Positions 1 through 16,246 of a stretch of 17,566 nt of DNA are shown one piece after another. Under the pieces are notes generated by a model, which did not search any database, had not been told where the DNA came from, and worked only from the letters and a program-made list of their open reading frames with translations. The DNA lies in the IMG/VR virus record IMGVR_UViG_3300029071_000015; one strand, 5' to 3'. The position numbers and the translations under genes are program-made. Origin of the DNA: a virus. Lineage: Duplodnaviria > Heunggongvirae > Uroviricota > Caudoviricetes. Positions within the stretch are counted from its first letter, which is position 1, and each line of letters starts with the position of its first letter.

Positions 1-987
1 ATGAACGCAATAATATCGCCCGATTATTACTATGTTCTTACCGTTGCCGGTCAGTCTAATGCTATGGCGTATGGCGAAGGACTCCCGTTACCAGACAGTG
101 AAGATGCGCCTCATCCCAGAATAAAACAACTGGCGAGATTCACTCAGACGCATCCCGGTGGCCCGTTATGTCAATTTAATGACATTATTCCACTGACTCA
201 CTGCCCACACGATGTCCAGGATATGCAGGGTTATCACCATCCTCTGGCAACGAATCATCAAACACAGTACGGCACCGTTGGCCAGGCACTACATATTGCG
301 CGGAAATTACTGCCCTTCATTCCTGATAATGCAGGCGTTCTTATCGTTCCCTGTTGCCGTGGTGGATCGGCTTTTACCACGGGCAGCGAAGGGACATATT
401 CAGAACAGCACGGAGCCAGCCATGATTCATGTCGTTGGGGAGCGGATACTCCGCTGTATCAGGATTTAGTCAACAGAACACGAACGGCACTGTCAAAGAA
501 TCCGCAGAATAAATTCCTCGGCGTATGCTGGATGCAGGGCGAATTTGACTTAATGACCAGTGACTACGCGTTACATCCTCAATACTTTAATCATATGGTT
601 GAAGCCTTTCGTGAGGATTTGAAACAGTATCGTTCTCAGCTTAATAATATTGCTGCCGCTCCGTGGTTTTGCGGCGATACCACCTGGTACTGGAAAGAAA
701 ATTACCCTCATTCGTATGAAACGATTTATGGCAATTATAAAAATAATGCCTTAGCCAATATTATTTTCGTCGGCTTCCAGCAACAAGGTGAAAGAGGGCT
801 GACGAACGAGCCAGATGAAGATCCGGACGATTTTATCACGGGATATTACGGTTCAGCGTACCGAACACCAGAAAACTGGACGACGGTGCTACGCAGCAGT
901 CATTTCAGCTCAGCAGCCCGTCGGGGGATTATTTCTGACAAATTTGTTGAAGCTATTTTACGGTATTGGTGCGATATGTGGCTTTAA
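1..987 (+). CDS. nanS: N-acetyl-9-O-acetylneuraminate esterase (SGNH/sialate O-acetylesterase family), NanS/YjhS-like
   Basis: 328-aa ORF starting at window position 1; N-terminal GQSN motif typical of SGNH hydrolases; N-terminus MNAIISPDYYYVLTVAGQSNAMAYGEG matches my recollection of E. coli YjhS/NanS. Not verified by search. Confidence 0.75.
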   Translation: MNAIISPDYYYVLTVAGQSNAMAYGEGLPLPDSEDAPHPRIKQLARFTQTHPGGPLCQFNDIIPLTHCPHDVQDMQGYHHPLATNHQTQYGTVGQALHIARKLLPFIPDNAGVLIVPCCRGGSAFTTGSEGTYSEQHGASHDSCRWGADTPLYQDLVNRTRTALSKNPQNKFLGVCWMQGEFDLMTSDYALHPQYFNHMVEAFREDLKQYRSQLNNIAAAPWFCGDTTWYWKENYPHSYETIYGNYKNNALANIIFVGFQQQGERGLTNEPDEDPDDFITGYYGSAYRTPENWTTVLRSSHFSSAARRGIISDKFVEAILRYWCDMWL

Positions 988-1304: not shown

Positions 1305-1350
1305 TGTAAATAGACCCGTTTTAGTTCCATGCATTTTTTGAGCTCCCGGC
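1305..1350. repeat. Left arm of a 46-bp inverted repeat (45/46 match to the reverse complement of 2521..2566)
   Basis: tgtaaatagacccgttttagttccatgcattttttgagctcccggc; the reverse complement of 2521..2566 is identical except one base (gagCtcc vs gagAtcc). Confidence 0.85.
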
Positions 1351-2356: not shown

Positions 2357-2520
2357 TGTTTGCCTCTATATTAATGCTACTGCTATCGCCACCTATTAAT
2401 ATCTGCCAATCAATAGGCAAAAAGGTGATACCAGTGGCATCAAAATTTCAGCCAAACAATCTTTGTAAGACGAAGATCTCTGATTTAACACTGCACTGAT
2501 TTTGGGCCAGGGTCAATTTG

Positions 2521-2566
2521 GCCGGGATCTCAAAAAATGCATGGAACTAAAACGGGTCTATTTACA
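2521..2566. repeat. Right arm of the 46-bp inverted repeat
   Basis: gccgggatctcaaaaaatgcatggaactaaaacgggtctatttaca; its last base abuts the first codon of the sid remnant. Confidence 0.85.
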
Positions 2567-2698
2567 ACCGGACTGTCAGCGGCAACACTCCCGCACATGG
2601 ATTATGAGGTGGCAGACACACCGGCACAGCGCAAGGTGTGGCAGGACAAAATAGACCAGCAGGCAGCAGAGCTTAAGGCCAGAGGACTGCTGTCATGA
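2567..2698 (+). pseudogene. sid: 3' remnant (last ~43 codons) of a P4 sid-like capsid-size-determination gene
   Basis: Translation TGLSAATLPHMDYEVADTPAQRKVWQDKIDQQAAELKARGLLS* matches my recollection of the P4 Sid C-terminus; the stop overlaps the next start (tcATGAtg), as expected in a sid-delta-psu late operon. Confidence 0.6.
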
Positions 2699-2806
2699 TG
2701 CGCTGCCATTTCTGTCGTCATTCTGCGCATACCCGCACCGGCAAGCACAGCACCGGCTGTTGTCCGAAAAGTTAAAGGCTGTTACAGCTCACCATTCAAC
2801 CATTAA
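2695..2806 (+). pseudogene. ogr/delta-like zinc-finger late activator gene with internal deletion and frameshift
   Basis: Starts MMRCHFCRHSAHTRT (CxxC zinc-finger start like Ogr/delta) and terminates early; its 3' end in another frame encodes KVKGCYSSPFNH*, matching the C-terminus KVQGCYSSPFRH* of the intact copy at 12450..12689. About 110 bp here versus 240 bp in the intact copy. Confidence 0.55.
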
Positions 2807-2820
2807 TCAGGAGACGGGGT

Positions 2821-3393
2821 GTGACTACAATGTCATTACAGCAGGCTTTTGAGGTCTGCCAGAATAATAAAGCGGCATAGCTTCAGCGCAAAAATGAACT
2901 AGCGGCAGCCGAACAGGAATATCTGCGGCTTCTGTCCGGGGAAGGCAGGAATGTCAACCGGCTGGACGAATTACGCAATATTATCGAAGTCAGAAAATGG
3001 CTGGTGAATCAGGCCGCCGGTCGTTATATTCGTTCGCATGAAGCCGTTCAGCACATCAGCATCTGCGACCGGCTGAATGATTTTATGCAGCAGCACGGCA
3101 CAGCACTGGCGGCCGCACTGGCACCGGAGCTGATGGGCTACAGTGAGCTGACGGCCGTTGCCCGAAACTGAGCCATACAGCGTGCCACAGATGCCCTGCG
3201 TGAAGCCCTCCTGTCCTGGCTTGCGAAGGGTGAAAAAATTAATTATTCCGCACAGGATAGCGACATTTTAACGGCTATCGGATTCAGGCCTGACGAGGCT
3301 TCGGTGGATGACAGCCGTGAAAAATTCACTCCTGCGCAGAACATAATTTTTTCCCGTAAAAGTGCAGAACTGGCATCACGTCAGTCTGTGTAA
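2821..3393 (+). pseudogene. psu: psu (polarity suppression protein) pseudogene with two in-frame stop codons
   Basis: A 573-nt frame (190 codons plus stop, GTG start with RBS aggagacgggGTG) alignable along its length to the intact Psu at 12705..13271 (roughly 60% identity by eye); TAG at 2878..2880 where the intact copy has Trp, and TGA near 3170 where a sense codon is expected. Confidence 0.75.
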
Positions 3394-3423
3394 AATTCCC
3401 CGAAAATCCGCCTGTTTTTACTG

Positions 3424-3458
3424 AAAAAAGCCATGCATCGATAAGGTGCATGGCTTTG
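3424..3458 (+). terminator. Putative intrinsic terminator downstream of psu (element 2 copy)
   Basis: Hairpin gccatgca-tcgataagg-tgcatggc followed by ttt; a homologous hairpin follows the intact psu at 13311..13346. Confidence 0.35.
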
Positions 3459-3557
3459 CATGCGTTTTCCCGCCTCATTTCCTGCAGATCACGCCGCACC
3501 CGGCGCGGCCTGAGCGTGTCAGTGCAACTGCATTAAAACCGCTCCGCAAAGCGGGCG

Positions 3558-3576
3558 GGCGAGGCGGGGAAAGCAC
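3558..3576. other. cos site (19-nt P2/P4-type cohesive-end sequence)
   Basis: ggcgaggcggggaaagcac is identical to the P2/P4 cohesive-end sequence as I recall it, and sits downstream of psu as in P4. Confidence 0.6.
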
Positions 3577-3603
3577 TGCGCGCTGCAAATTAATACTAGC
3601 TTA

Positions 3604-4167
3604 TTAAGCATCCGCTTCAAATCCTCCAAGATCGATTTGCTCTTCGATTTCAGGAGTCCAAAGTAATTCTTCTGGCGTAGCGTTTGACCAAAGCAATTTA
3701 CCATTCTCGATAACATACTTAACCGGTATTTTAGGATTGTTTATGTCTTTACCATCTCTTTCATGCCATTGTCTCTCCCATTTATCATAGAAGACTTCCA
3801 AATCACCGGGCATGAGTAAATAAACTGAACGGATAGTGATATTACTATAAATTGCGAACACCCATGGAACCTGCCTATATTTCGCAATTATTGTTGGATT
3901 CATATGATGGTGAGTTGAAAAACTTTTAGTTAACTCAACATTAACTGATTTTAATTCAAACTCAGTACCAGTGACATCTACTGCATCATTACCTTCTCGC
4001 CCAGGAAGAACTTTAAGACTGAGAAGTAAAAGAACTTGCAGGAGTTTCCCTCCGTTATCTTGGAATATATCATTGATTCCGTGCTTATTAGCTAACCGTT
4101 GATATTCTTCAACCTGAGGCCAAAGCGCAATTAAATTTGACCAATCTTGATGCAACTCAAATTTCAT
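3604..4167 (-). CDS. Type II restriction endonuclease, PvuII-like (PD-(D/E)xK)
   Basis: 187-aa ORF; segments [51 protein letters not shown] and DKWER match my recollection of R.PvuII, including the catalytic D...E-x-K; ATGA overlap with the upstream C gene; divergent from the methyltransferase. Confidence 0.75.
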
Positions 4168-4400
4168 ACCTGATTATTCTCCAACAGGGAACTGGGAGAG
4201 ACGCCAAGGGCTGAAGCAATTCGGTCGATATTATCAATGGAAATATTTCTTTCACATCGCTCTACTGATCCGATGTAAGTTCTATGCAAGCCTGCTAAGT
4301 CAGCCAAGGCTTCTTGAGACAACCCTTGTCTCTCCCTTAACTTTCTGATGTTATGGGCAAAAATCACTCTTGCTCTTGAGGGGTTTATCTTTCGTTCCAT
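4164..4400 (-). CDS. Controller (C) protein of restriction-modification system, XRE-family HTH
   Basis: 78-aa ORF with a helix-turn-helix region ([41 protein letters not shown]) resembling C.PvuII-type controller proteins; sits immediately upstream of and overlaps the endonuclease gene. Confidence 0.8.
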
Positions 4401-4427
4401 TCGCGAGACAATGCAGCCTTGATGACA

Positions 4428-4452
4428 ATAGATCTACAGACTATGAGTAGCA
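4428..4452. promoter_or_regulatory. Putative C-box operator in the divergent M/C-R intergenic region
   Basis: The 55-bp intergenic region contains dyad-symmetric elements (tagatcta; actatgagt, i.e. ACT-N3-AGT) just upstream of the C gene start, where C-protein operators normally lie. Confidence 0.4.
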
Positions 4453-4455
4453 GTT

Positions 4456-5430
4456 ATGACATTTGACAATAAAAAACCTGCGTACAAAACAGATTTGGGT
4501 GCAATGTACATTGCTGACTCGCTTGAAATGCTTAAATCGATGCCAGACAACAGCTTAAATTTAGTGATGACAAGCCCACCTTTCGCATTACAGCGTAAGA
4601 AAGAATATGGTAATCACGATCAAGAACAGTACATCGATTGGTTTTTAAAATTCGGCGAGCTGATTTTTAAAAAGCTAAAAGATGATGGTAGCTTTGTCGT
4701 CGATTTTGGTGGTGCTTACATGAAAGGAGTGCCTGTTAGAAGTGTCTACAACTTCCGGGTTTTGATCAGGATGATTGATGAGGTTGGGTTCCATCTGGCT
4801 GAGGACTTCTATTGGTTTAACCCTTCAAAACTACCAAGTCCTATTGAGTGGGTTAACAAAAGAAAGCTGCGTGTTAAAGATTCTGTTAACACAATTTGGT
4901 GGTTTAGCAAAACCGAATGGCCAAAGTCAGATATAACTAAAGTTCTTGTTCCCTATAGTGATAGGATGAAAAAACTTATTGAAGACCCTAATAAATATTA
5001 TTCCCCCAAAATGCGTCCATCAGGGCATGATATAAGCAGCAGCTTTGGCAAAGATAATGGCGGTGCTATACCTCCAAATTTATTGCAAATTCCCAACTCC
5101 GAATCTAACGGTGGATATTTATCGAGTTGTAAAAAAATTGGCGTTAAGGGGCATCCAGCACGATTCCCATCTAAATTGCCGGAGTTTTTCATTACAATGT
5201 TAACAGAGCCGGGTGATCTTGTTGTAGATATTTTTGGCGGTTCAAATACAACTGGAAGTGTTGCTGAACGATTAAAACGCAAATGGCTTTCATTTGAAAT
5301 ATTACCTGAATATGTAGCCGCATCTGTATTTAGATTTACAGATAAAAATACAAGTCAAGATATACTTCAAGAGATGTATGACACTATATTAAATGGAAAT
5401 ACTCTCGATTTATGCGCCAAAGAGAAATAA
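4456..5430 (+). CDS. DNA methyltransferase, beta-class amino-MTase (likely N4-cytosine, M.PvuII-like)
   Basis: 324-aa ORF; motif IV TSPPF near the N-terminus and motif I FGGSNTTG near the C-terminus (the circularly permuted order typical of beta-class N4C/N6A MTases); divergently arranged to the C-R genes. Confidence 0.8.
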   Translation: MTFDNKKPAYKTDLGAMYIADSLEMLKSMPDNSLNLVMTSPPFALQRKKEYGNHDQEQYIDWFLKFGELIFKKLKDDGSFVVDFGGAYMKGVPVRSVYNFRVLIRMIDEVGFHLAEDFYWFNPSKLPSPIEWVNKRKLRVKDSVNTIWWFSKTEWPKSDITKVLVPYSDRMKKLIEDPNKYYSPKMRPSGHDISSSFGKDNGGAIPPNLLQIPNSESNGGYLSSCKKIGVKGHPARFPSKLPEFFITMLTEPGDLVVDIFGGSNTTGSVAERLKRKWLSFEILPEYVAASVFRFTDKNTSQDILQEMYDTILNGNTLDLCAKEK

Positions 5431-5505
5431 GGTCAAATCGTAGTTAGCTAATTCGTAAAGAAAGCCAGTCATAGAGTCAGATTGGCTTTCTATCAGCATA
5501 AATAA

Positions 5506-6764
5506 TTAAGCATGAAGTTTTGCGTAGTCAAATGGACTAATAGGTTTAATCTTGTTTGCATCAAGATAATCAGCCCACCATTGAACCATTAATCGCCTTT
5601 CATCCAAATGTTCAGGGGTATGAATATAAGCTGCCCTAACACTATTACGCTCAGAATGACTCAACTGACGTTCTATCGCGTCATCACTCCATAGCCCCGA
5701 CTCCCCCAACGCACCACGTGCCATATTCCTAAAACCATGACCACAGACTTCCGTTTTTGTGTTATATCCCATCGCACGCAATGCATTGTTTACCGTATTT
5801 TCACTCATAACCTTAGCTGCGTCATGATCTCCCGGGAAAAGAAGCTCTTTATCACCACTAATCTGCTCAAGCTGTACTAACAACATCATCGCCTGCTGGC
5901 TAAGTGGAACTATATGCTCCTCTTTCATTTTCATGCCGCGATACGAGTAACGCACACCTTTAATTTCTTCACGTTTTGCCGGAATACGCCAAATAGCGTT
6001 ATCAAAATCAAATTCTTTCCAACGAGCAAAACGCAATTCGCTTGAACGAACAAAAGTTAGTAAAGAAAGCTCAACCGCAATTTTCGTCATCATACGACCA
6101 CGATATGCAGCAAGACGCGCCAAGAACTCAGGGAAACGATGTGAGGGTAGCGCCGGATAGTGCCGCATTTTAGATGTCGATAACGCTCCAGCCATATCAC
6201 TTGCAGGATTCGAGTCTATATAATCGTTCTGTACGGCATAGCGCATAATAGTAGTGACACGTTGCTGAAGACGCTGCGCTACATCATGCTTACCACTGGC
6301 ATCAACTTTTTTATCGGAGCTAGAAGATGACTAGTTTTAAGCTGTCGGATATCAGACGAGCCAATATAAGGGAAGATATAAAGCTCTAGATAGCGAAGAA
6401 CGCGCCCCCGATGATCCTCGCTCCAACGTTTGTTGCTGGCATGCCATTCACGGGTAATAGTTTCAAAATTATAAGTACCAGCATTCTCTGCTTGGGCCTC
6501 TTTTCGTACTGCTTTTGGATCTATGCCGTGTGCCAGCAACTTTTTCGCTTCATCCCTTCTCGTTCTAGCTTCAGCAAGCGTCACGGTCGGCCAAACACCA
6601 AAAGCAAGACGATCCTCTTTTTTGTCGGAGGGGCGTCTGTATTTCATACGCCAATATTTAGAGCCTTTGATAGAAACCTCAAGATACAAACCGCCACCAT
6701 CAGCCATTTTGTAGGTTTTGTCTTTTAGCTTTGCGGTCTCGACTTGTCTGGCGTTGAGCTTCAT
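5506..6764 (-). pseudogene. int: P4-family tyrosine integrase, frameshifted (split into 6279..6764 and 5506..6246 ORFs)
   Basis: The two ORFs together align along the intact integrase at 16301..17566 (roughly 85-90% identity); the nucleotide alignment shows a 1-bp deletion near 6270..6290 (ttttttatcgg versus ttttttaatcgg in the intact copy) that breaks the frame. Confidence 0.8.
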
Positions 6765-6916
6765 TTTGGGGGCACATTTCTAATCGAAGTTAAGATGCCC
6801 CCAATGATATCCGGATTTCAACGGACAACCTCGGAAGAGGTAGGACGTAAAAATCGCTGCAAGCATTGATTTTAAAGGGATATTTGGACTTTCTCGGATG
6901 GTCTTGGAAGTACTAA

Positions 6917-6935
6917 TGGTGCGAAGGCCGGACTC
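6917..6935 (-). other. att core remnant: partial copy of a tRNA-Leu (leuX-like) 3' end
   Basis: tggtgcgaaggccggactc is the reverse complement of a tRNA-Leu 3' end (...GAGTCCGGCCTTCG(G)CACCA) with one base missing; located ~150 bp upstream of the frameshifted int, in the same orientation as a tRNA-int arrangement. Confidence 0.45.
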
Positions 6936-7080
6936 AAATTACGATATAACATACTGAAATATAATAATTTTAAATTAAAAGGAAAGTAATATGCCCCCTT
7001 TTGTGCCCCCAACGATTTTTTTGAGCATATAAAACCTAGCTAATTGATATTGCTAACAAATTAAAGATTAACTCCCTATT

Positions 7081-10545: not shown

Positions 10546-10747
10546 AGCGGCAATCTCCAATAAGTAGCGGTTATCGCCACCACAAGAGCTGCAAATCTCA
10601 TGGGTGGTAGCCCGGACAGGGTTTGCAGTACCGGCCTTATTGGAAACCGGCCAGCCCGAAGGCTGCCCCGCCCGGACCACCATTATCTGACAGGAGCCAC
10701 GGTGTAAGCACCACAGCCCGAAAAATAGGTGTGTCTGAGCAACGACA

Positions 10748-10770
10748 TAAAAAAACACGCTCGGCGCGTG
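10748..10770 (-). terminator. Putative intrinsic terminator (minus strand) downstream of the AlpA-like gene
   Basis: 6-bp stem acacgc/gcgtgt with 5-nt loop, followed on the minus strand by a run of 7-8 U. Confidence 0.35.
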
Positions 10771-10898
10771 TTGTGTCGCCAATAAGTTACACGGGCTGCA
10801 AATCCCGGCTGCCGATTTTGCGACAGCGGGAAAACTATACCTGGAAACGGCGAAAAGAAGCAAGCCAGAAAAAGGGGCTGTTTGCTGAACGGTCATCA

Positions 10899-11630: not shown

Positions 11631-11702
11631 ACGGTAATGAATCGTGTTGTTGTGCAGGAGGCGTCAGAATCATTTCAGGTTGAACACACGGAGAGCCTGA
11701 AC

Positions 11703-12446
11703 ATGAAACCCGAACTCATTATCAAAGCCATGCAGACCGTTATCAGTAAACAGGATGAAGGCGCGGAACAACGCATTGCCGGTGCGCTGGCCGCACTTAA
11801 CGAAGCAAAAGACGCATACATGGCCAGCATGGAAAAACTCAGCGACATTGAGGCTTCCATTCAGCGTTGTGAGCAGGAACGACAGACTGCCCTCAGTGAA
11901 AGCGCACAGGCCGAACAGGACTGGCGCAGCCGCTTTCGAACCCTGCGTGGCAACCTCACTCCTGAACTGAAAGCTGAACACAGTAAGCGTATCGCCAGCC
12001 GCGAACTGGCTGATGAGTTCACCGGTCTGATTACCGAGCTCGAGAAAGACAAAAGCCTCGCCATGCTTGGCGCATGCTCCTCCGGTACGGCTTATATCCG
12101 CGCCCATGAAAAAGCATTCACCACTTACGCCAACAGCGAGTGGAAGAAGGCGCAGGCCGGAATCAGCCCCGCACTGTTACGTGCCTTCCTGTTGCGTATA
12201 CGGTCGCTGGAAATGAGTGGGGAAACCTCGCCGCGCGCGACCGTGAATCGCGAGCTGGGTGATGCACTTAATATGCAGTCAGCCCTGTATCATTTTAATA
12301 TTACACAGGAGCCGGTTCTGTCCGTAACGGGCATGAATCGTCCGGTAATTACCGGGGTTGATATGGAACTGTTCAAAAGCCCCGCCAAACGGATGAAGCT
12401 TGCCGCTGAACTGGCAGCCAAAAACCCTGAACAGGCGGAGGGCTGA
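11703..12446 (+). CDS. Sid-like protein (putative capsid-size-determination / external scaffold), divergent
   Basis: About 247 aa from the internal Met with RBS ggagagcctgaacATG; coiled-coil-like, Ala/Glu/Gln-rich; sits immediately upstream of delta and psu as sid does in P4; C-terminal segment (EPVLSVTGMNRPVITGVDMELF) shows weak resemblance to the P4 Sid C-terminus seen at 2567..2698. Confidence 0.55.
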   Translation: MKPELIIKAMQTVISKQDEGAEQRIAGALAALNEAKDAYMASMEKLSDIEASIQRCEQERQTALSESAQAEQDWRSRFRTLRGNLTPELKAEHSKRIASRELADEFTGLITELEKDKSLAMLGACSSGTAYIRAHEKAFTTYANSEWKKAQAGISPALLRAFLLRIRSLEMSGETSPRATVNRELGDALNMQSALYHFNITQEPVLSVTGMNRPVITGVDMELFKSPAKRMKLAAELAAKNPEQAEG

Positions 12447-12449
12447 ATT

Positions 12450-12689
12450 ATGTTTCACTGCCCGTTCTGCAAAAAGACCTCGCATGTCCGAACCAGCCGG
12501 TATCTGTCGGAAAACGTCAAACAGCGTTATCACCAGTGTACCAATATCGAATGCTCGGCCACTTTCCGCACCATCGAGTCTGTTGACGGTGTGATACGTG
12601 CCGCACCGGAGAAAACCGACCCCGCCCCGGTGACGCCAGCGCCGCCGCGTAAAGTACAGGGCTGCTACAGCTCGCCGTTCCGGCATTAA
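12450..12689 (+). CDS. Ogr/Delta-family zinc-finger late transcription activator
   Basis: 79-aa ORF MFHCPFCKKTSHVRTSRY...YHQCTNIECSATF with the CxxC...CxxC arrangement of P2 Ogr / P4 delta; starts 3 nt after the sid-like stop. Confidence 0.85.
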   Translation: MFHCPFCKKTSHVRTSRYLSENVKQRYHQCTNIECSATFRTIESVDGVIRAAPEKTDPAPVTPAPPRKVQGCYSSPFRH

Positions 12690-12704
12690 TCAGGAGAGAG
12701 ACAC

Positions 12705-13271
12705 GTGACCACTGTGACATTGCAGCAGGCCTTTGAGGCCTGTCAGACGAACAAAAACACCTGGCTGAAACGTAAAGCCGAACTGGCCGACCTTGAACTT
12801 GAATACCGTGAACAGCTCCTTGCCGGTGACGAACAAATCCCGCGCAAAATGCAGGATTTGCGCGACAATATCGACGTGAAAAAATGGGAGATTAATCAGA
12901 CTGCCGGTCGCTATATCCGCTCACATGAGGAGGTGCAGCACATCAGCATTCGCAACCGGCTCAATGACTTTATGCAGCAGCACGGCGCGGAGCTGGCCGC
13001 CACGCTGGCACCTGAGCTGATGGGATATCACGAACAGCTTCCCGCAGTAAAACAGAGCGCCATGCAGCACTCGGTTGATTATCTGCGTGAAGCCCTGTCG
13101 GTGTGGCTGGCCGCCGGTGAAAAAATTAATTATTCCGTGCAGGACAGCGATATTTTAACGGCCATCGGATTCAGGCCTGATGCGGCTTCGCGGGATGATA
13201 GTCGCGAAAAATTCACCCCGGCACAGAACCTGATTTACACCCGCCGACGTGCAGAACTGGCCACACGGTAG
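12705..13271 (+). CDS. psu: Psu-like polarity suppression protein
   Basis: 188-aa ORF (GTG start with RBS caggagagagacacGTG) with conserved blocks AGRYIRSHE.VQHISI, RLNDFMQQHG, LAPELMGY, GEKINYS.QDSDILTAIGFRPD and DSREKFTPAQN matching my recollection of P4 Psu and the pseudogene copy at 2821..3393. Confidence 0.85.
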   Translation: MTTVTLQQAFEACQTNKNTWLKRKAELADLELEYREQLLAGDEQIPRKMQDLRDNIDVKKWEINQTAGRYIRSHEEVQHISIRNRLNDFMQQHGAELAATLAPELMGYHEQLPAVKQSAMQHSVDYLREALSVWLAAGEKINYSVQDSDILTAIGFRPDAASRDDSREKFTPAQNLIYTRRRAELATR

Positions 13272-13444: not shown

Positions 13445-13463
13445 GGCGTGGCGGGGAGAGCAT
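13445..13463. other. Variant cos-like site (16/19 match to the P2/P4 cohesive-end sequence)
   Basis: ggcgtggcggggagagcat versus canonical ggcgaggcggggaaagcac (present intact at 3558..3576); same position relative to psu and the upstream hairpin. Confidence 0.45.
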
Positions 13464-13588
13464 TGCGCGCTAAGCCGTGAGGATAATTATTATCCTACTC
13501 ATGACCTGTCTAATCGGAAAGAAGTGAAAATATTCATGTAACCCCTGAATATTTAACGTTAAACCGATCAAATTCTAGGGCGAAAATA

Positions 13589-13668: not shown

Positions 13669-14748
13669 ATGAATGTAGGGCATCTCAATTTTTTCAAGGT
13701 TAATAAGTGCGGTTTATACAAGGTAAATGATGACAATACCTATGGTTTAGAACTAAGCGAAACATTTGACCTCATACAGGATTGGGTAGGAACTAAACCT
13801 CTTGCACTCACCATACCATGGGACCCAAAAGAAAAACCCAATAGATCAAAGTGTTATTGTAAAGACATCTACAAAGATGAAAATACTGGTGATTTTTTAA
13901 TCATGTTATGGAAATCTGATACTGATAGTACTGGTTCTTTATTAGGAGCGAGTGAAGACGGTGAAATCGGAAGTTCATCAGTGGTTAAATATACTAATAG
14001 CTACAGAGGGAAAAAAGTCATCTGGGGTCGCCCATGCTTTTATTGGGTTATACCTGAACTTGAAACTATAGTTTCTATTAAATTCGATCATTCTGTTTGT
14101 GACTCTGAACTATTTCAAGATTATGTACACTCATCTATTACTAATAGAGTTAAACATAGCAAAAGAGTTAAAAATAAAACCGAGAAAGGTTATATAAGAT
14201 TATCTAATACTGATGACGAAGATTTATATAAATACATGTACAGATTTGATATGAAGCTCCGAAGCTTAGAAACCACTCATGCTGAGTTAGGTAAATTGAT
14301 ATCAAAAATAACACATATTGTTCGCAGAGAAACCATTATTATAAATCCAAATGACGCACGAGCTGATTGGTTAAAGACTTTTAGCACTCTCGTTCCATTT
14401 GTGTCCGGAAAGAAAAACACCAGAACAAGACAGATTGAAATAAAAGCAGAAGCGAAGCCATCCTTGAAAGAAGTTCAAGAAATAATTGAAAAACATTCTG
14501 CTGAGGATAGAGAAAAACGTCTTTGGGATAATGTGGGATTTGCGACGGACAAGGGCATAACATGGGTGGATAAATATAGAATGCGTGATATTCTCAATGT
14601 CCCTTCCGAAGACTATTCGACATATACCGCTGCATATATCTACGAACACATATCACACAAAAGAAAAGAATTCATTTCCCCTATATTAAAAGAGCTAAAA
14701 GCATTAAAATCTCAATCAAGAATAAAGAAAGCATCTGGAGAGGATTGA
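13669..14748 (+). CDS. Hypothetical protein (cargo gene A, 359 aa, soluble, Lys-rich)
   Basis: Long ORF with RBS aaggaaagagcATG; AT-rich codon usage contrasting with the satellite backbone; no catalytic motif I can recognise; stop directly abuts the next start (TGAATG). Confidence 0.7.
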   Translation: MNVGHLNFFKVNKCGLYKVNDDNTYGLELSETFDLIQDWVGTKPLALTIPWDPKEKPNRSKCYCKDIYKDENTGDFLIMLWKSDTDSTGSLLGASEDGEIGSSSVVKYTNSYRGKKVIWGRPCFYWVIPELETIVSIKFDHSVCDSELFQDYVHSSITNRVKHSKRVKNKTEKGYIRLSNTDDEDLYKYMYRFDMKLRSLETTHAELGKLISKITHIVRRETIIINPNDARADWLKTFSTLVPFVSGKKNTRTRQIEIKAEAKPSLKEVQEIIEKHSAEDREKRLWDNVGFATDKGITWVDKYRMRDILNVPSEDYSTYTAAYIYEHISHKRKEFISPILKELKALKSQSRIKKASGED

Positions 14749-15285
14749 ATGTTAAAAGCTATAGTAGGCCTCGTCAAATACACATGGATATACATAGCAA
14801 TATTCATTATATCGCTATTGGTCATTTTACCATCCGATATTTACTATGTGTATAACGATTTTGCTAACTATTGCACTCTTCTCGTATCAGTTTCTGGAAT
14901 GGTTTTTACTATTATGGGGATTTGGTTAGCGTTTCTTTATCCAAATGCTTTGCAGCGTATTGTTAACCCCAAAACTATAGAAACTGTTGATTTCACCGAA
15001 CAACTGGAAGATACAAAAAGGTTAGAAGCAATAGTTGGAAGTGTTCTAAAATCATCTTTCGTTATGATTACTTTACTTGTTGTATATTTAGTTAAACTAG
15101 TATTTTTCAAGAGTCATCTTTATTTAGAGAGTCAAGAAGTAATAAAAGACATATCTTTAGCATTAATTATTGCCATTTCATACATGCAGATTGAGGCAGT
15201 GATTAGTGTAATACTAGCTAATGTTATGTTTATCAATGATTTACATAATAAGCGAGAGCAAAGAGACATCGACGATCAAGTATGA
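14749..15285 (+). CDS. Hypothetical integral membrane protein (cargo gene B, 178 aa, ~4 TM helices)
   Basis: Four hydrophobic segments (WIYIAIFIISLLVIL, LLVSVSGMVFTIMGIWLAFLY, FVMITLLVVYLVKLVFF, LALIIAISYMQIEAVISVILANVMFI); translationally coupled to gene A. Confidence 0.7.
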   Translation: MLKAIVGLVKYTWIYIAIFIISLLVILPSDIYYVYNDFANYCTLLVSVSGMVFTIMGIWLAFLYPNALQRIVNPKTIETVDFTEQLEDTKRLEAIVGSVLKSSFVMITLLVVYLVKLVFFKSHLYLESQEVIKDISLALIIAISYMQIEAVISVILANVMFINDLHNKREQRDIDDQV

Positions 15286-15292
15286 GGAAAAA

Positions 15293-16246
15293 ATGAAAAA
15301 AAACATACGAGTTATACCTAAAAACATTCATAACAAGTTAAAAAGGCTTGGCAATGCAGTTGTTGCTGGCACTTCCATCGCATTTACAGAAGACCAATTA
15401 AAAAATGGTATACTAGAGCACCTTGGAATATACTTTGATAATGGTGTTAATGCTTATGAGACGTCGGTTATACCCGATCCATTGCAAGGCAAATATTCAT
15501 TCAAAAATGTTTTCGGTGAAGAAATCGTAAGAAAAGACCTTCCAAAAGAAACTCATTACACTGAAATTGAGTCACCTAACTGGGGTGATAGTTCTAACGG
15601 TACGCATACTGTTAGATTACCTCACGAGAAATACCCCAGAGATATTATCCCACCAAGACTCATAGCAATTGAAATTAATCACAAACAGTCTTCGGACAGT
15701 CATTTCATATTTAATTTCAGAGTAACTAGAATTTTAGAAAAAAAATCAACCAAGTTTCATGATGAATTATTATTCGACTTAAATCTTCTTCAAGAAAATA
15801 TTGGGAAGTGTGGGATTGAGAATGCTGATAAACCTATATCGACTTATGCTGACACACTCATAGTATCATGGGACATATTTCCACCAGGTAGTAAAGAGGA
15901 AGTTTTAGCAAGAATCTTTAGAGGGAAAAATATCACTACAGATAAGAAAAGTGTTGCTGAAAACAGATATGACTTCTTTATGAGCCTTGATCCTAAAAAA
16001 ATTGTCACAGGTAATAGTACGTTCAGTAATTATATTGGAGCTATGCTAGAGGACGACCTGGTTGTTTTTGAAAATATAGAATATGGTAATGCAATATATA
16101 TCCTCTATGATAACTGGGATGAAATCAGCAAGCTATCTCGAATCGATTTGTTATCAGGAAGAGCAGGCAATAATTTCGATAGAATAATTCATAGTGGTAA
16201 TTGGAAAGACGAGGTGCGAAAAAAAGTTACTAATGGAAGATTATGA
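15293..16246 (+). CDS. Hypothetical protein (cargo gene C, 317 aa, soluble)
   Basis: Start placed at MKKNIRV with RBS tatgaggaaaaaATG, 7 nt after the gene B stop; the longer listed ORF (from 15221) would overlap gene B; followed by a strong terminator. Confidence 0.65.
   Translation: MKKNIRVIPKNIHNKLKRLGNAVVAGTSIAFTEDQLKNGILEHLGIYFDNGVNAYETSVIPDPLQGKYSFKNVFGEEIVRKDLPKETHYTEIESPNWGDSSNGTHTVRLPHEKYPRDIIPPRLIAIEINHKQSSDSHFIFNFRVTRILEKKSTKFHDELLFDLNLLQENIGKCGIENADKPISTYADTLIVSWDIFPPGSKEEVLARIFRGKNITTDKKSVAENRYDFFMSLDPKKIVTGNSTFSNYIGAMLEDDLVVFENIEYGNAIYILYDNWDEISKLSRIDLLSGRAGNNFDRIIHSGNWKDEVRKKVTNGRL

What the first reader, a model, noticed from the sequence alone, without database searches (positions are those of the whole stretch)
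2567..3393. Decay pattern of the late operon in element 2: truncated sid, internally deleted delta, psu with two nonsense codons
Seen in sequence: psu keeps its full 190-codon frame but has TAG at codon 20 (Trp in the intact copy) and TGA near codon 117; delta has lost about 130 bp internally; sid retains only its last 43 codons. Both psu stops are consistent with single-nucleotide changes, and the frame is otherwise preserved, which suggests recent inactivation. The overlapping stop/start junctions of the operon are still intact.
Basis: partly seen in the sequence, partly recalled or inferred. Interest (0 to 1): 0.35.

Follow-up and report, generated by a model that had tools for sequence, protein, structure and literature searches.

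The report
Decayed P4-like satellite late operon
This stretch is the dead remnant of the sid-delta-psu operon of an old P4-like phage satellite, still picking up random mutations while the restriction-modification genes beside it stay intact; this is an ordinary kind of genome decay.

Summary

- **sid:** only the last 43 codons remain (2567-2698). They abut the end of an IS3-family remnant.
- **delta (2695-2806):** it has lost 134 bp between two GCACC repeats. This shifts the frame and removes half of the zinc finger.
- **psu (2821-3393):** it keeps an indel-free 190-codon frame, with TGG>TAG at codon 20 and TGT>TGA at codon 117.

The stops are not sequencing errors.
- The same remnant occurs in at least 15 distinct haplotypes from genomes and metagenomes of a non-coli Escherichia lineage.
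- TGA is present in 14 of these 15 haplotypes.
- TAG occurs only in the window's own lineage, but there it appears in four assemblies.

"Recent inactivation" is only partly right. TAG is recent, but the operon died earlier. The IS truncation (which removed the sid 5' end and its promoter region), the delta deletion and an integrase frameshift are shared by every copy that retains the late region.

Among the copies, sid'+psu' carry 9 nonsynonymous and 1 synonymous change. This includes an independent third nonsense mutation in another lineage. The adjacent PvuII-type restriction-modification cassette carries 1 nonsynonymous and 9 synonymous changes.

Element 2 is therefore a fossil satellite at leuX that survives as a carrier of this cassette. 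A newer, intact P4-like satellite sits in tandem with it. This is a known phenomenon of low novelty.

The parts
2467..2566 (+). Right-end remnant of an IS3-family insertion sequence (3' end of the transposase gene plus terminal inverted repeat). It forms the breakpoint that truncates sid.
   Evidence: Window 2516-2567 is 100% identical to the right end of an annotated IS3-family IS in E. coli. Window 2467-2566 is 94% identical to an 'ISBp1 transposase B' region. An inverted copy of the same end lies at 1305-1350. There is no target-site duplication (TGC on one side, ACC on the other).
2567..2698 (+). sid': the last 43 codons plus the TGA stop of the capsid-size scaffold gene (P4 Sid residues 202-244).
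   Evidence: Aligns to P4 10186-10317 at 90% and to the ATCC 8739 satellite at about 98%. Homology stops exactly at 2567.
2695..2806 (+). delta': an Ogr/Delta-type zinc-finger activator gene with a 134-bp internal, frame-shifting deletion. The breakpoint is at GCACC 2735-2739, leaving a 26-codon ORF.
   Evidence: Alignment to the intact 246-nt gene of the ATCC 8739 satellite. The deletion removes codons ~15-59, including Cys30 and Cys35 of the C-X2-C...C-X4-C finger. The deletion is present in all remnant copies.
2821..3393 (+). psu pseudogene: 190 codons, indel-free, with two nonsense codons.
   Evidence: It is 93.6% identical to P4 psu and 96% to the ATCC 8739 satellite.
2878..2880 (+). TAG at psu codon 20 (TGG Trp in intact copies). 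Recent and specific to the window's lineage.
   Evidence: Position 2879 is A only in the window and in L012, L013, L015 and L016. It is G in 14 other haplotypes.
3169..3171 (+). TGA at psu codon 117 (TGT Cys in intact copies). The older lesion.
   Evidence: Present in 14 of 15 haplotypes. The exception, L033, carries an imported patch across 3157-3396.
3558..3576 (+). cos cohesive-end sequence GGCGAGGCGGGGAAAGCAC, identical to that of P4.
   Evidence: Exact string match to P4 bases 1-19. Homology to P4 runs up to its right end at window 3557.
3604..4167 (-). Intact R.PvuII-type restriction endonuclease (187 aa), cargo in the psu-int hotspot.
   Evidence: Pfam Endonuc-PvuII E 6.5e-62, PADLOC REase_II E 3.5e-131, PDB R.PvuII E ~1e-73. 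Polymorphism is 0 nonsynonymous to 2 synonymous.
4164..4400 (-). Intact C (controller) protein of the restriction-modification system (78 aa, helix-turn-helix).
   Evidence: Pfam HTH_3 E 1.5e-16. PADLOC Control_protein E 2.5e-39. No polymorphism among the copies.
4456..5430 (+). Intact M.PvuII-type N4-cytosine methyltransferase (324 aa).
   Evidence: PADLOC MTase_II E 1.6e-203. PDB 1BOO (M.PvuII) E 7.5e-173. The exact protein is indexed in 332 blocks of the collection. Polymorphism is 1 nonsynonymous to 7 synonymous.
5506..6764 (-). int': the integrase of element 2, split by a frameshift near 6303-6312 into fragments of 161 and 246 aa.
   Evidence: tblastn with P4 Int: residues 2-158 lie in one frame and 156-414 in another. 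Pfam domains are split between the two ORFs. All copies carry the same split. Polymorphism in the C-terminal fragment is 7 nonsynonymous to 2 synonymous, including a nonsense codon in L031.
6917..6936 (-). att core (3' end of tRNA-Leu(CAA), leuX), the junction between fossil element 2 and intact element 1.
   Evidence: In strains without element 1, the same bases are the 3' end of a complete tRNA-Leu(CAA) (L004 8462-8546). Identity between the window and those strains ends at 6935.
11637..13271 (+). Intact sid (269 aa), delta (79 aa) and psu (188 aa) of tandem element 1.
   Evidence: PHROG matches: Sid family E 1.8e-76, Delta E 1.1e-20, Psu E 2.5e-91.

Best explanation
Element 2 (about 2567-6936) is the fossil of a P4-like phage satellite that integrated at tRNA-Leu leuX in an ancestor of this non-coli Escherichia lineage.

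An IS3-family insertion in sid codon 201/202, with an associated deletion, removed the sid 5' end, the Delta-dependent late promoter region and all replication, immunity and derepression genes. This loss is shown. The remaining late genes then had no promoter, no activator and no function to be selected for, which is inferred.

The remnant has since drifted. Shared lesions are:
- a 134-bp slippage deletion in delta;
- a frameshift in int;
- TGT>TGA at psu codon 117.

Later, lineage-specific lesions include the window's TGG>TAG at codon 20.

The PvuII-type R-C-M cassette in the psu-int hotspot has stayed intact under purifying selection. It is probably the reason the remnant persists, either through defence benefit or through post-segregational killing; this is inferred. 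A newer, intact P4-like satellite (element 1) later integrated at the same tRNA site, which produced the tandem array.
For: Anatomy:
- P4 and self BLAST map the window.
- Alignment to the intact ATCC 8739 satellite defines the three lesions.
- Both IS ends match the right end of one IS3-family element.
- The int frameshift is shown.
- The att core equals the leuX 3' end.
- C4 RNA and isrK are found only in element 1.

Sharing:
- The remnant is found in genome and metagenome assemblies at 99.2-99.6% identity, with 15 distinct haplotypes.
- The IS junction, the delta deletion and the int split are invariant. TGA is in 14 of 15 haplotypes. TAG is only in the window's lineage.
- Several strains have the remnant directly next to leuX with no element 1. 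Others have a different second satellite. The remnant is therefore the older resident.

Selection:
- Polymorphism among copies is 9 nonsynonymous to 1 synonymous in sid'+psu'. This matches the neutral expectation of 77% nonsynonymous (binomial p=0.47).
- It is 7 to 2 in int' and 1 to 9 in R+C+M.
- Fisher's test of 16:3 against 1:9 gives p=0.0002.
- Independent nonsense mutations occur in other lineages: psu S72* in L010/L032 and int Q6* in L031.

Other:
- No sigma-70-like site lies on the + strand upstream of psu.
- Psu helix alpha7 (residues 170-186) contacts Rho (PMC11718236), so a product truncated at codon 116 lacks that contact.
- Pseudogenised tandem P4-like sets are already noted in the literature (PMC8628076).
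Against: - Expression was not measured. A weak outward promoter from the IS end, or read-through from upstream, cannot be excluded; a 53-codon chimeric ORF (2537-2698) spans the junction.
- Fixed differences from intact relatives in psu are 8 nonsynonymous to 11 synonymous. That is only mildly raised over functional lineages (3:9) and not significant, so much of that divergence predates the inactivation.
- The M counts are partly biased, because 8 of the loci were retrieved by exact M-protein identity. For R and C alone the contrast is weak (0:2, p=0.045).
- The relative order of the IS event, the delta deletion and TGA cannot be resolved, because all are shared.
Confidence: 0.88

Rival explanations
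1. The psu stops were selected for, not neutral. After the rearrangement, psu came under unregulated transcription from the IS end or from upstream. Psu inhibits the essential factor Rho and is toxic, so knock-outs were favoured.
For: Three independent nonsense mutations occur in a 190-codon gene (C117*, W20*, S72*). Two of 8 polymorphisms are nonsense against 4.1% expected (binomial p=0.04). Cellular toxicity of Psu is mentioned in PMC11718236. A chimeric ORF runs from the IS end into sid'.
Against: W20* and S72* arose in copies that already carried C117*, which removes the Rho-contacting helix alpha7, so they cannot have been selected to remove toxicity. L033 carries a restored full-length psu ORF with no visible compensating lesion. 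No promoter-like site lies upstream on the + strand. The int' fragment decays in the same way (7 nonsynonymous to 2 synonymous, with one nonsense) and has no toxicity argument.
Confidence: 0.07
2. The stops are sequencing or assembly errors, and psu is intact in the organism.
For: None from the tools. Raw reads were not available.
Against: TAG is present in four separately assembled contigs that are 100% identical to the window (two ENA and two JGI assemblies). TGA is present in 14 distinct haplotypes, including NCBI isolate genomes. Gene callers independently report the 116-aa product ending at TGA.
Confidence: 0.01
3. The remnant is kept because psu'-cos and int' serve as homology arms. They would let the PvuII cassette be swapped by recombination into incoming P4-like satellites, or the cos site would let helper phage package the region. 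On this view the late-gene relics are functional DNA rather than junk.
For: The cos 19-mer is identical to that of P4. L033 shows a recombination patch (3157-3396) that is 99.3-99.6% identical to circulating E. coli psu alleles, whereas the window version is at best 97.2%, so the relic does recombine with other satellites. New satellites repeatedly land next to it. Modular exchange of hotspot cargo is a published theme (title and abstract of PMC13586616).
Against: One conversion tract shows that recombination happens, not that it is selected. The relic accumulates substitutions at neutral proportions. TW09308 (L035) keeps the cassette and int' but lacks psu', cos and everything to their left, so these are dispensable for retaining the cassette. 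Element 1's psu is only 72% identical, which makes it a poor recombination partner.
Confidence: 0.04

Closest known systems
Late operon (sid-delta-psu) of satellite phage P4 (NC_001609) and of P4-like satellites such as the selC-integrated element of E. coli ATCC 8739
   Same: Same gene order and sid/delta ATGA overlap. psu' is 93.6% identical in DNA to P4 and 96% to ATCC 8739. The cos 19-mer is identical and lies 165 bp after psu. The psu-cos-hotspot-int layout is the same.
   Different: sid lacks codons 1-201 and its promoter. delta is the short, single-domain (Ogr/phiR73-like) type and is internally deleted and frame-shifted. psu has two nonsense codons. No alpha, epsilon, cI/C4 RNA, alpA or ori remains.
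Pseudogenised tandem P4-like sets described by Moura de Sousa & Rocha (PMC8628076)
   Same: A group of P4 core-gene homologues lies next to a complete P4-like element at a tRNA site. That paper interprets this as pseudogenisation of tandem elements.
   Different: That paper found psu pseudogenes to be rare (8% of psu-less variants). Here the order of lesions can be read across 15 haplotypes, and the relic is fixed in a non-coli Escherichia lineage.
Defence hotspot between psu/cos and int of P4-like satellites (Rousset et al., PMC9122126), and the PvuII-orthologous 'Esp' RM system of Escherichia sp. TW09308 (Liang & Blumenthal, PMC3850674)
   Same: A type II restriction-modification system sits immediately after cos and before int. 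The same cassette occurs in the TW09308 contig AEME01000001 (L035).
   Different: Here the carrier satellite is dead while the cargo is conserved. The 2013 paper described the cassette, but the passages read here did not mention a satellite context.
Domesticated or defective prophages of enterobacteria (Bobay et al. 2014, cited in PMC8628076)
   Same: Mobility and structural genes decay neutrally while a useful or addictive cargo gene set stays under purifying selection.
   Different: This is a satellite rather than a phage, and the retained module is a C-regulated type II restriction-modification system.

Membership tests
P4-like phage satellite (functional element, in the sense of Moura de Sousa & Rocha: at least 5 of 7 core components int, psu, delta, sid, alpA, epsilon, alpha) | Intact psu | tested here: not met
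   Homologous over the full length, but with TAG at codon 20 and TGA at codon 117.
P4-like phage satellite (functional element, in the sense of Moura de Sousa & Rocha: at least 5 of 7 core components int, psu, delta, sid, alpA, epsilon, alpha) | Intact delta (Ogr/Delta zinc-finger activator) | tested here: not met
   A 134-bp frame-shifting deletion removes the second Cys pair.
P4-like phage satellite (functional element, in the sense of Moura de Sousa & Rocha: at least 5 of 7 core components int, psu, delta, sid, alpA, epsilon, alpha) | Intact sid | tested here: not met
   Only 43 of 244 codons remain.
P4-like phage satellite (functional element, in the sense of Moura de Sousa & Rocha: at least 5 of 7 core components int, psu, delta, sid, alpA, epsilon, alpha) | alpha primase-helicase, epsilon/ash and alpA present | tested here: not met
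   No P4 homology lies between the IS end and sid'. These genes, with C4 RNA and isrK, occur only in element 1.
P4-like phage satellite (functional element, in the sense of Moura de Sousa & Rocha: at least 5 of 7 core components int, psu, delta, sid, alpA, epsilon, alpha) | Intact tyrosine integrase next to a tRNA att site | tested here: not met
   The integrase is homologous (87-90% aa identity to P4 Int) but frame-shifted. The att core/leuX relation is met.
P4-like phage satellite (by descent: a relic of one) | Collinear nucleotide homology to P4 across sid-delta-psu-cos and int, with a P2/P4-type cos | tested here: met
PvuII-type (C-regulated, type IIP) restriction-modification system | R.PvuII-fold endonuclease, C protein upstream of and overlapping R, and a divergent N4-cytosine methyltransferase | tested here: met
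   Sequence matches to the PDB R.PvuII and M.PvuII structures. C overlaps R by 4 nt (4164-4167) and M is divergent from C. This layout matches PMC3850674. CAGCTG specificity and activity were not tested.
IS3-family insertion sequence (complete element) | Two different terminal repeats flanking orfA/orfB transposase genes, plus a target-site duplication | tested here: not met
   Only two inverted copies of the same (right) end are present. No transposase ORF lies between them (Pfam found none) and there is no duplication. These are remnants, not an IS.

The most novel reading that the evidence does not exclude
The dead satellite may be more than junk. Its psu'-cos and int' relics may act as landing pads and homology arms that exchange sequence, and potentially the PvuII cassette, with P4-like satellites that repeatedly integrate beside it at leuX. 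One strain (L033) has already had the 3' half of psu overwritten by a circulating allele, which restored a full-length ORF. The relic would then be a chromosomal bank for satellite hotspot cargo.
Probability: 0.1. Interest if true: 0.4.

Novelty: already known. Interest (0 to 1): 0.15.

Why it matters
The significance is mainly for annotation. The region should be annotated as three pseudogenes of a fossil P4-like satellite, not as short hypothetical proteins or a 'Psu' gene, which is how gene callers report it in many assemblies.

It is also a clean small example of differential decay. The satellite's mobility and hijacking genes drift neutrally, while the restriction-modification cargo in the hotspot is conserved. 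Maintenance of this cassette therefore does not need a working Psu. That bears, weakly, on the published speculation that Psu boosts expression of hotspot defence genes.

Tried and rejected
- **Deletion-junction scan.** I scanned one genome per species (genome contigs) for the delta deletion junction. There were 0 hits.
- **nanS scan.** A 41-mer from nanS, meant to name the host species, also gave 0 hits. The species is therefore inferred only from 90-95% identity of flanking core genes to E. coli and from the TW09308 link.
- **TAG carriers.** I looked up the 55-aa psu fragment to count assemblies carrying TAG. It is not on record, with either V or M as first residue.
- **Progenitor search.** I searched viral contigs for an intact satellite carrying the same methylase. 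The best hit was only 82% identical and uninformative.
- **P4 delta as reference.** I first compared delta' with P4's 166-aa delta, which suggested a 448-bp loss. I rejected this because the 3' end and the psu junction match the short delta type.
- **Complete IS.** I considered 1305-2566 as a complete IS. I rejected this because both ends are the same IS end and there is no transposase.
- **Fixed substitutions.** A relaxed-selection test on fixed substitutions (8 nonsynonymous to 11 synonymous, against 3:9) was not significant. The polymorphism-based test was used instead.

Full report
**What is at the coordinates**

BLAST of the window against P4 (NC_001609) gives two collinear matches. Window 2567-2735 matches P4 10186-10354 at 90%. 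Window 2836-3557 matches P4 10903-11624 at 93.6%, and P4 11624 is the right end of the P4 genome. In P4 these coordinates are the 3' end of sid, the start of delta, and psu up to the cos end.

A closer intact relative is the P4-like satellite at tRNA-Sec of E. coli ATCC 8739. It covers 100% of window 2567-3557 at 96.3% identity, but in 1125 bp instead of 991 bp.

**The three lesions**

*sid.* Homology starts abruptly at 2567. That is 43 codons before the sid stop (TGA 2696-2698), so P4 Sid residues 202-244 remain.

*delta.*
- The start ATG 2695-2697 keeps the ATGA overlap with the sid stop.
- The gene is 112 nt instead of 246 nt. The missing 134 bp lie between two GCACC pentamers, of which one copy remains at 2735-2739.
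- 134 is not a multiple of 3. The reading frame from the ATG therefore ends after 26 codons, at TAA 2773-2775. The conserved C-terminus (…RKVKGCYSSPFNH*) is in another frame.
- Cys30 and Cys35 of the zinc finger are deleted.
- The 3' end of delta and the delta-psu spacer resemble the short delta of ATCC 8739 and of element 1, not the duplicated 166-aa P4 delta.

*psu.*
- Window 2821-3393 aligns codon for codon with P4 psu, 573 nt each.
- The stops are TAG at codon 20 (2878-2880) and TGA at codon 117 (3169-3171). P4 and ATCC 8739 have TGG and TGT at those positions.

Only the sid/delta junction overlaps. The delta-psu junction is a 14-nt spacer in all copies.

**Surroundings**

Immediately left of 2567 lies the right end of an IS3-family IS. 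Window 2516-2567 is 100% identical to the end of an annotated IS3-family element.
- An inverted copy of the same end lies at 1305-1350.
- Between the two ends are an autotransporter fragment and a 197-aa ORF, with no transposase.
- There is no target-site duplication.
- These are therefore rearrangement scars, not a simple insertion.
- Further left are an HNH gene and nanS.

To the right of psu the features run as follows.
- The cos 19-mer at 3558-3576 is identical to that of P4.
- An intact PvuII-type cassette follows: R at 3604-4167 (−), C at 4164-4400 (−) and M at 4456-5430 (+).
- Next is an integrase gene with 87-90% aa identity to P4 Int, frame-shifted near 6303-6312.
- The 20-nt att core lies at 6917-6936. 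In strains lacking element 1, these bases are the 3' end of tRNA-Leu(CAA).

From 6937 onward lies a complete, different P4-like satellite, element 1. It has:
- crr repeats and the alpha gene;
- C4 RNA and isrK;
- an intact sid, delta and psu;
- a variant cos;
- a PDC-M18-like hotspot;
- an integrase gene.

The two elements are only 72-81% identical to each other.

**Are the stops real, and how old are they?**

Exact-protein look-ups retrieved the same nanS…sid'-delta'-psu'-R-C-M-int' arrangement from isolate genomes and gut metagenomes. The methylase is indexed in 332 blocks of the collection and the int' fragment in 252.
- Four contigs (two ENA, two JGI) are 100% identical to the window across the TAG. 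Three of them match over 8987 bp and one over 3009 bp.
- Other copies are 99.2-99.6% identical.
- Across 15 distinct haplotypes, the IS junction, the delta deletion and the int frameshift never vary.
- TGA is present in 14 of the 15 haplotypes.
- TAG (A at 2879) is found only in the window's lineage.
- S46N (2957) is shared with L031, which still has TGG, so TAG is the latest change.
- L010/L032 carry an independent TCG>TAG at codon 72. L031 carries a nonsense codon in int'.

The one copy without TGA is L033. It differs at 19 clustered positions between 3157 and 3396.
- That tract is 99.3-99.6% identical to psu alleles of circulating E. coli satellites. The window's version is at best 97.2% identical.
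- This is a recombination patch, not the ancestral state of the relic.
- It restores a 190-aa ORF.

In TW09308 (L035) the cassette and int' are present, but everything left of 3585, including cos and the late genes, is replaced by a large Big-domain gene.

**Selection**

| Region | Nonsynonymous | Synonymous |
|---|---|---|
| sid' | 2 | 0 |
| psu' | 7 | 1 |
| int' C-terminal fragment | 7 | 2 |
| R | 0 | 2 |
| C | 0 | 0 |
| M | 1 | 7 |

These are counts of polymorphisms among the copies.
- For random changes in psu, 77% would be nonsynonymous and 4.1% nonsense.
- The combined sid'+psu' count of 9:1 fits neutrality (p=0.47).
- The pseudogene parts (16:3) differ from the cassette (1:9) with Fisher p=0.0002.
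- They also differ from the divergence between functional P4 and ATCC 8739 psu (3:9), with p=0.004.

Two caveats apply. Eight loci were retrieved by exact M identity, which biases M toward zero nonsynonymous changes. R and C alone give only 0:2.

**Interpretation**

The late operon of element 2 is dead.
- It has lost the sid 5' end and, with it, the Psid region and the activator.
- No sigma-70-like site was found on the + strand upstream.
- The 116-codon Psu product lacks helix alpha7 (residues 170-186), which contacts Rho (PMC11718236).

The operon was inactivated before these strains diverged.

Strains with the relic directly at leuX, and strains with different second satellites, show that the relic is the older resident and that element 1 arrived later.

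The host is a non-coli Escherichia.
- Its yjgR-lptFG genes are 90-95% identical to those of 5306 E. coli genomes.
- One carrier contig is AEME01000001, from Escherichia sp. TW09308.
- That strain's PvuII-orthologous system was described in PMC3850674.

**Comparison with what is known**

Tandem P4-like sets next to complete elements were interpreted as pseudogenisation by Moura de Sousa & Rocha (PMC8628076). Type II restriction-modification systems in the psu-int hotspot were reported by Rousset et al. (PMC9122126). This locus is an instance of both. It is correctly observed, ordinary in kind and of low novelty.

Noticed in passing
window 3604-5430: An intact PvuII-type R-C-M restriction-modification cassette sits in the psu-int hotspot of the dead satellite. 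It shows purifying selection (1 nonsynonymous to 9 synonymous) while its flanks decay. It is the same cassette as the 'Esp' system of Escherichia sp. TW09308 (PMC3850674).
   Followed up: yes
L033 8345-8625 (equivalent to window 3157-3396): One metagenomic strain has a recombination patch in the 3' half of psu'. The patch is 99.3-99.6% identical to circulating E. coli satellite alleles. It removes the TGA and restores a 190-aa ORF in an otherwise dead operon.
   Followed up: partly
L035 (AEME01000001, TW09308), junction equivalent to window 3585: This strain keeps R-C-M and int' but lacks cos, psu', delta', sid', the IS scars and nanS at this site. A gene for a Big-domain protein of more than 1760 aa abuts the hotspot directly.
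   Followed up: no
window 1305-1350 and 2521-2566: Two inverted copies (46 nt, 98% complementary) of the same right end of an IS3-family IS enclose an autotransporter beta-domain fragment (1387-1656) and a 197-aa ORF with no family match (1763-2356). There is no transposase and no target-site duplication.
   Followed up: partly
window 2537-2698: A chimeric 53-codon ORF starts at an ATG inside the IS end and runs in frame into the sid remnant. It is called as a gene in many assemblies.
   Followed up: no
window 13669-16246: The hotspot of element 1 encodes proteins matching the PADLOC candidate system PDC-M18 (A: E 1.5e-38; B: E 9.6e-16). It also has a 341-aa ORF (15221-16246) with no Pfam, PHROG or PADLOC match.
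   Followed up: no
window 10600-10687 and 10750-10827 (- strand): C4 antisense RNA (85.9 bits) and isrK (72 bits) lie in the immunity region of element 1. Element 2 has neither.
   Followed up: no
window 1-987 (nanS): Among the same strains, the sialate O-acetylesterase gene shows 15 nonsynonymous and 7 synonymous polymorphisms. That is unusually protein-changing for an intact chromosomal gene.
   Followed up: no
L004 9127-12962 (yjgR-lptF-lptG next to leuX): Six complete E. coli genomes, including APEC O1:K1:H7 and UPEC strains, are at least 99% identical to this non-coli host over this segment, while 5306 others are 90-95% identical. This suggests interspecies import around leuX.
   Followed up: no
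window ~13447-13465: The cos core of element 1 (GGCGTGGCGGGGAGAGCAT) differs from the P4/element 2 19-mer at three positions. This may indicate a different helper specificity.
   Followed up: no
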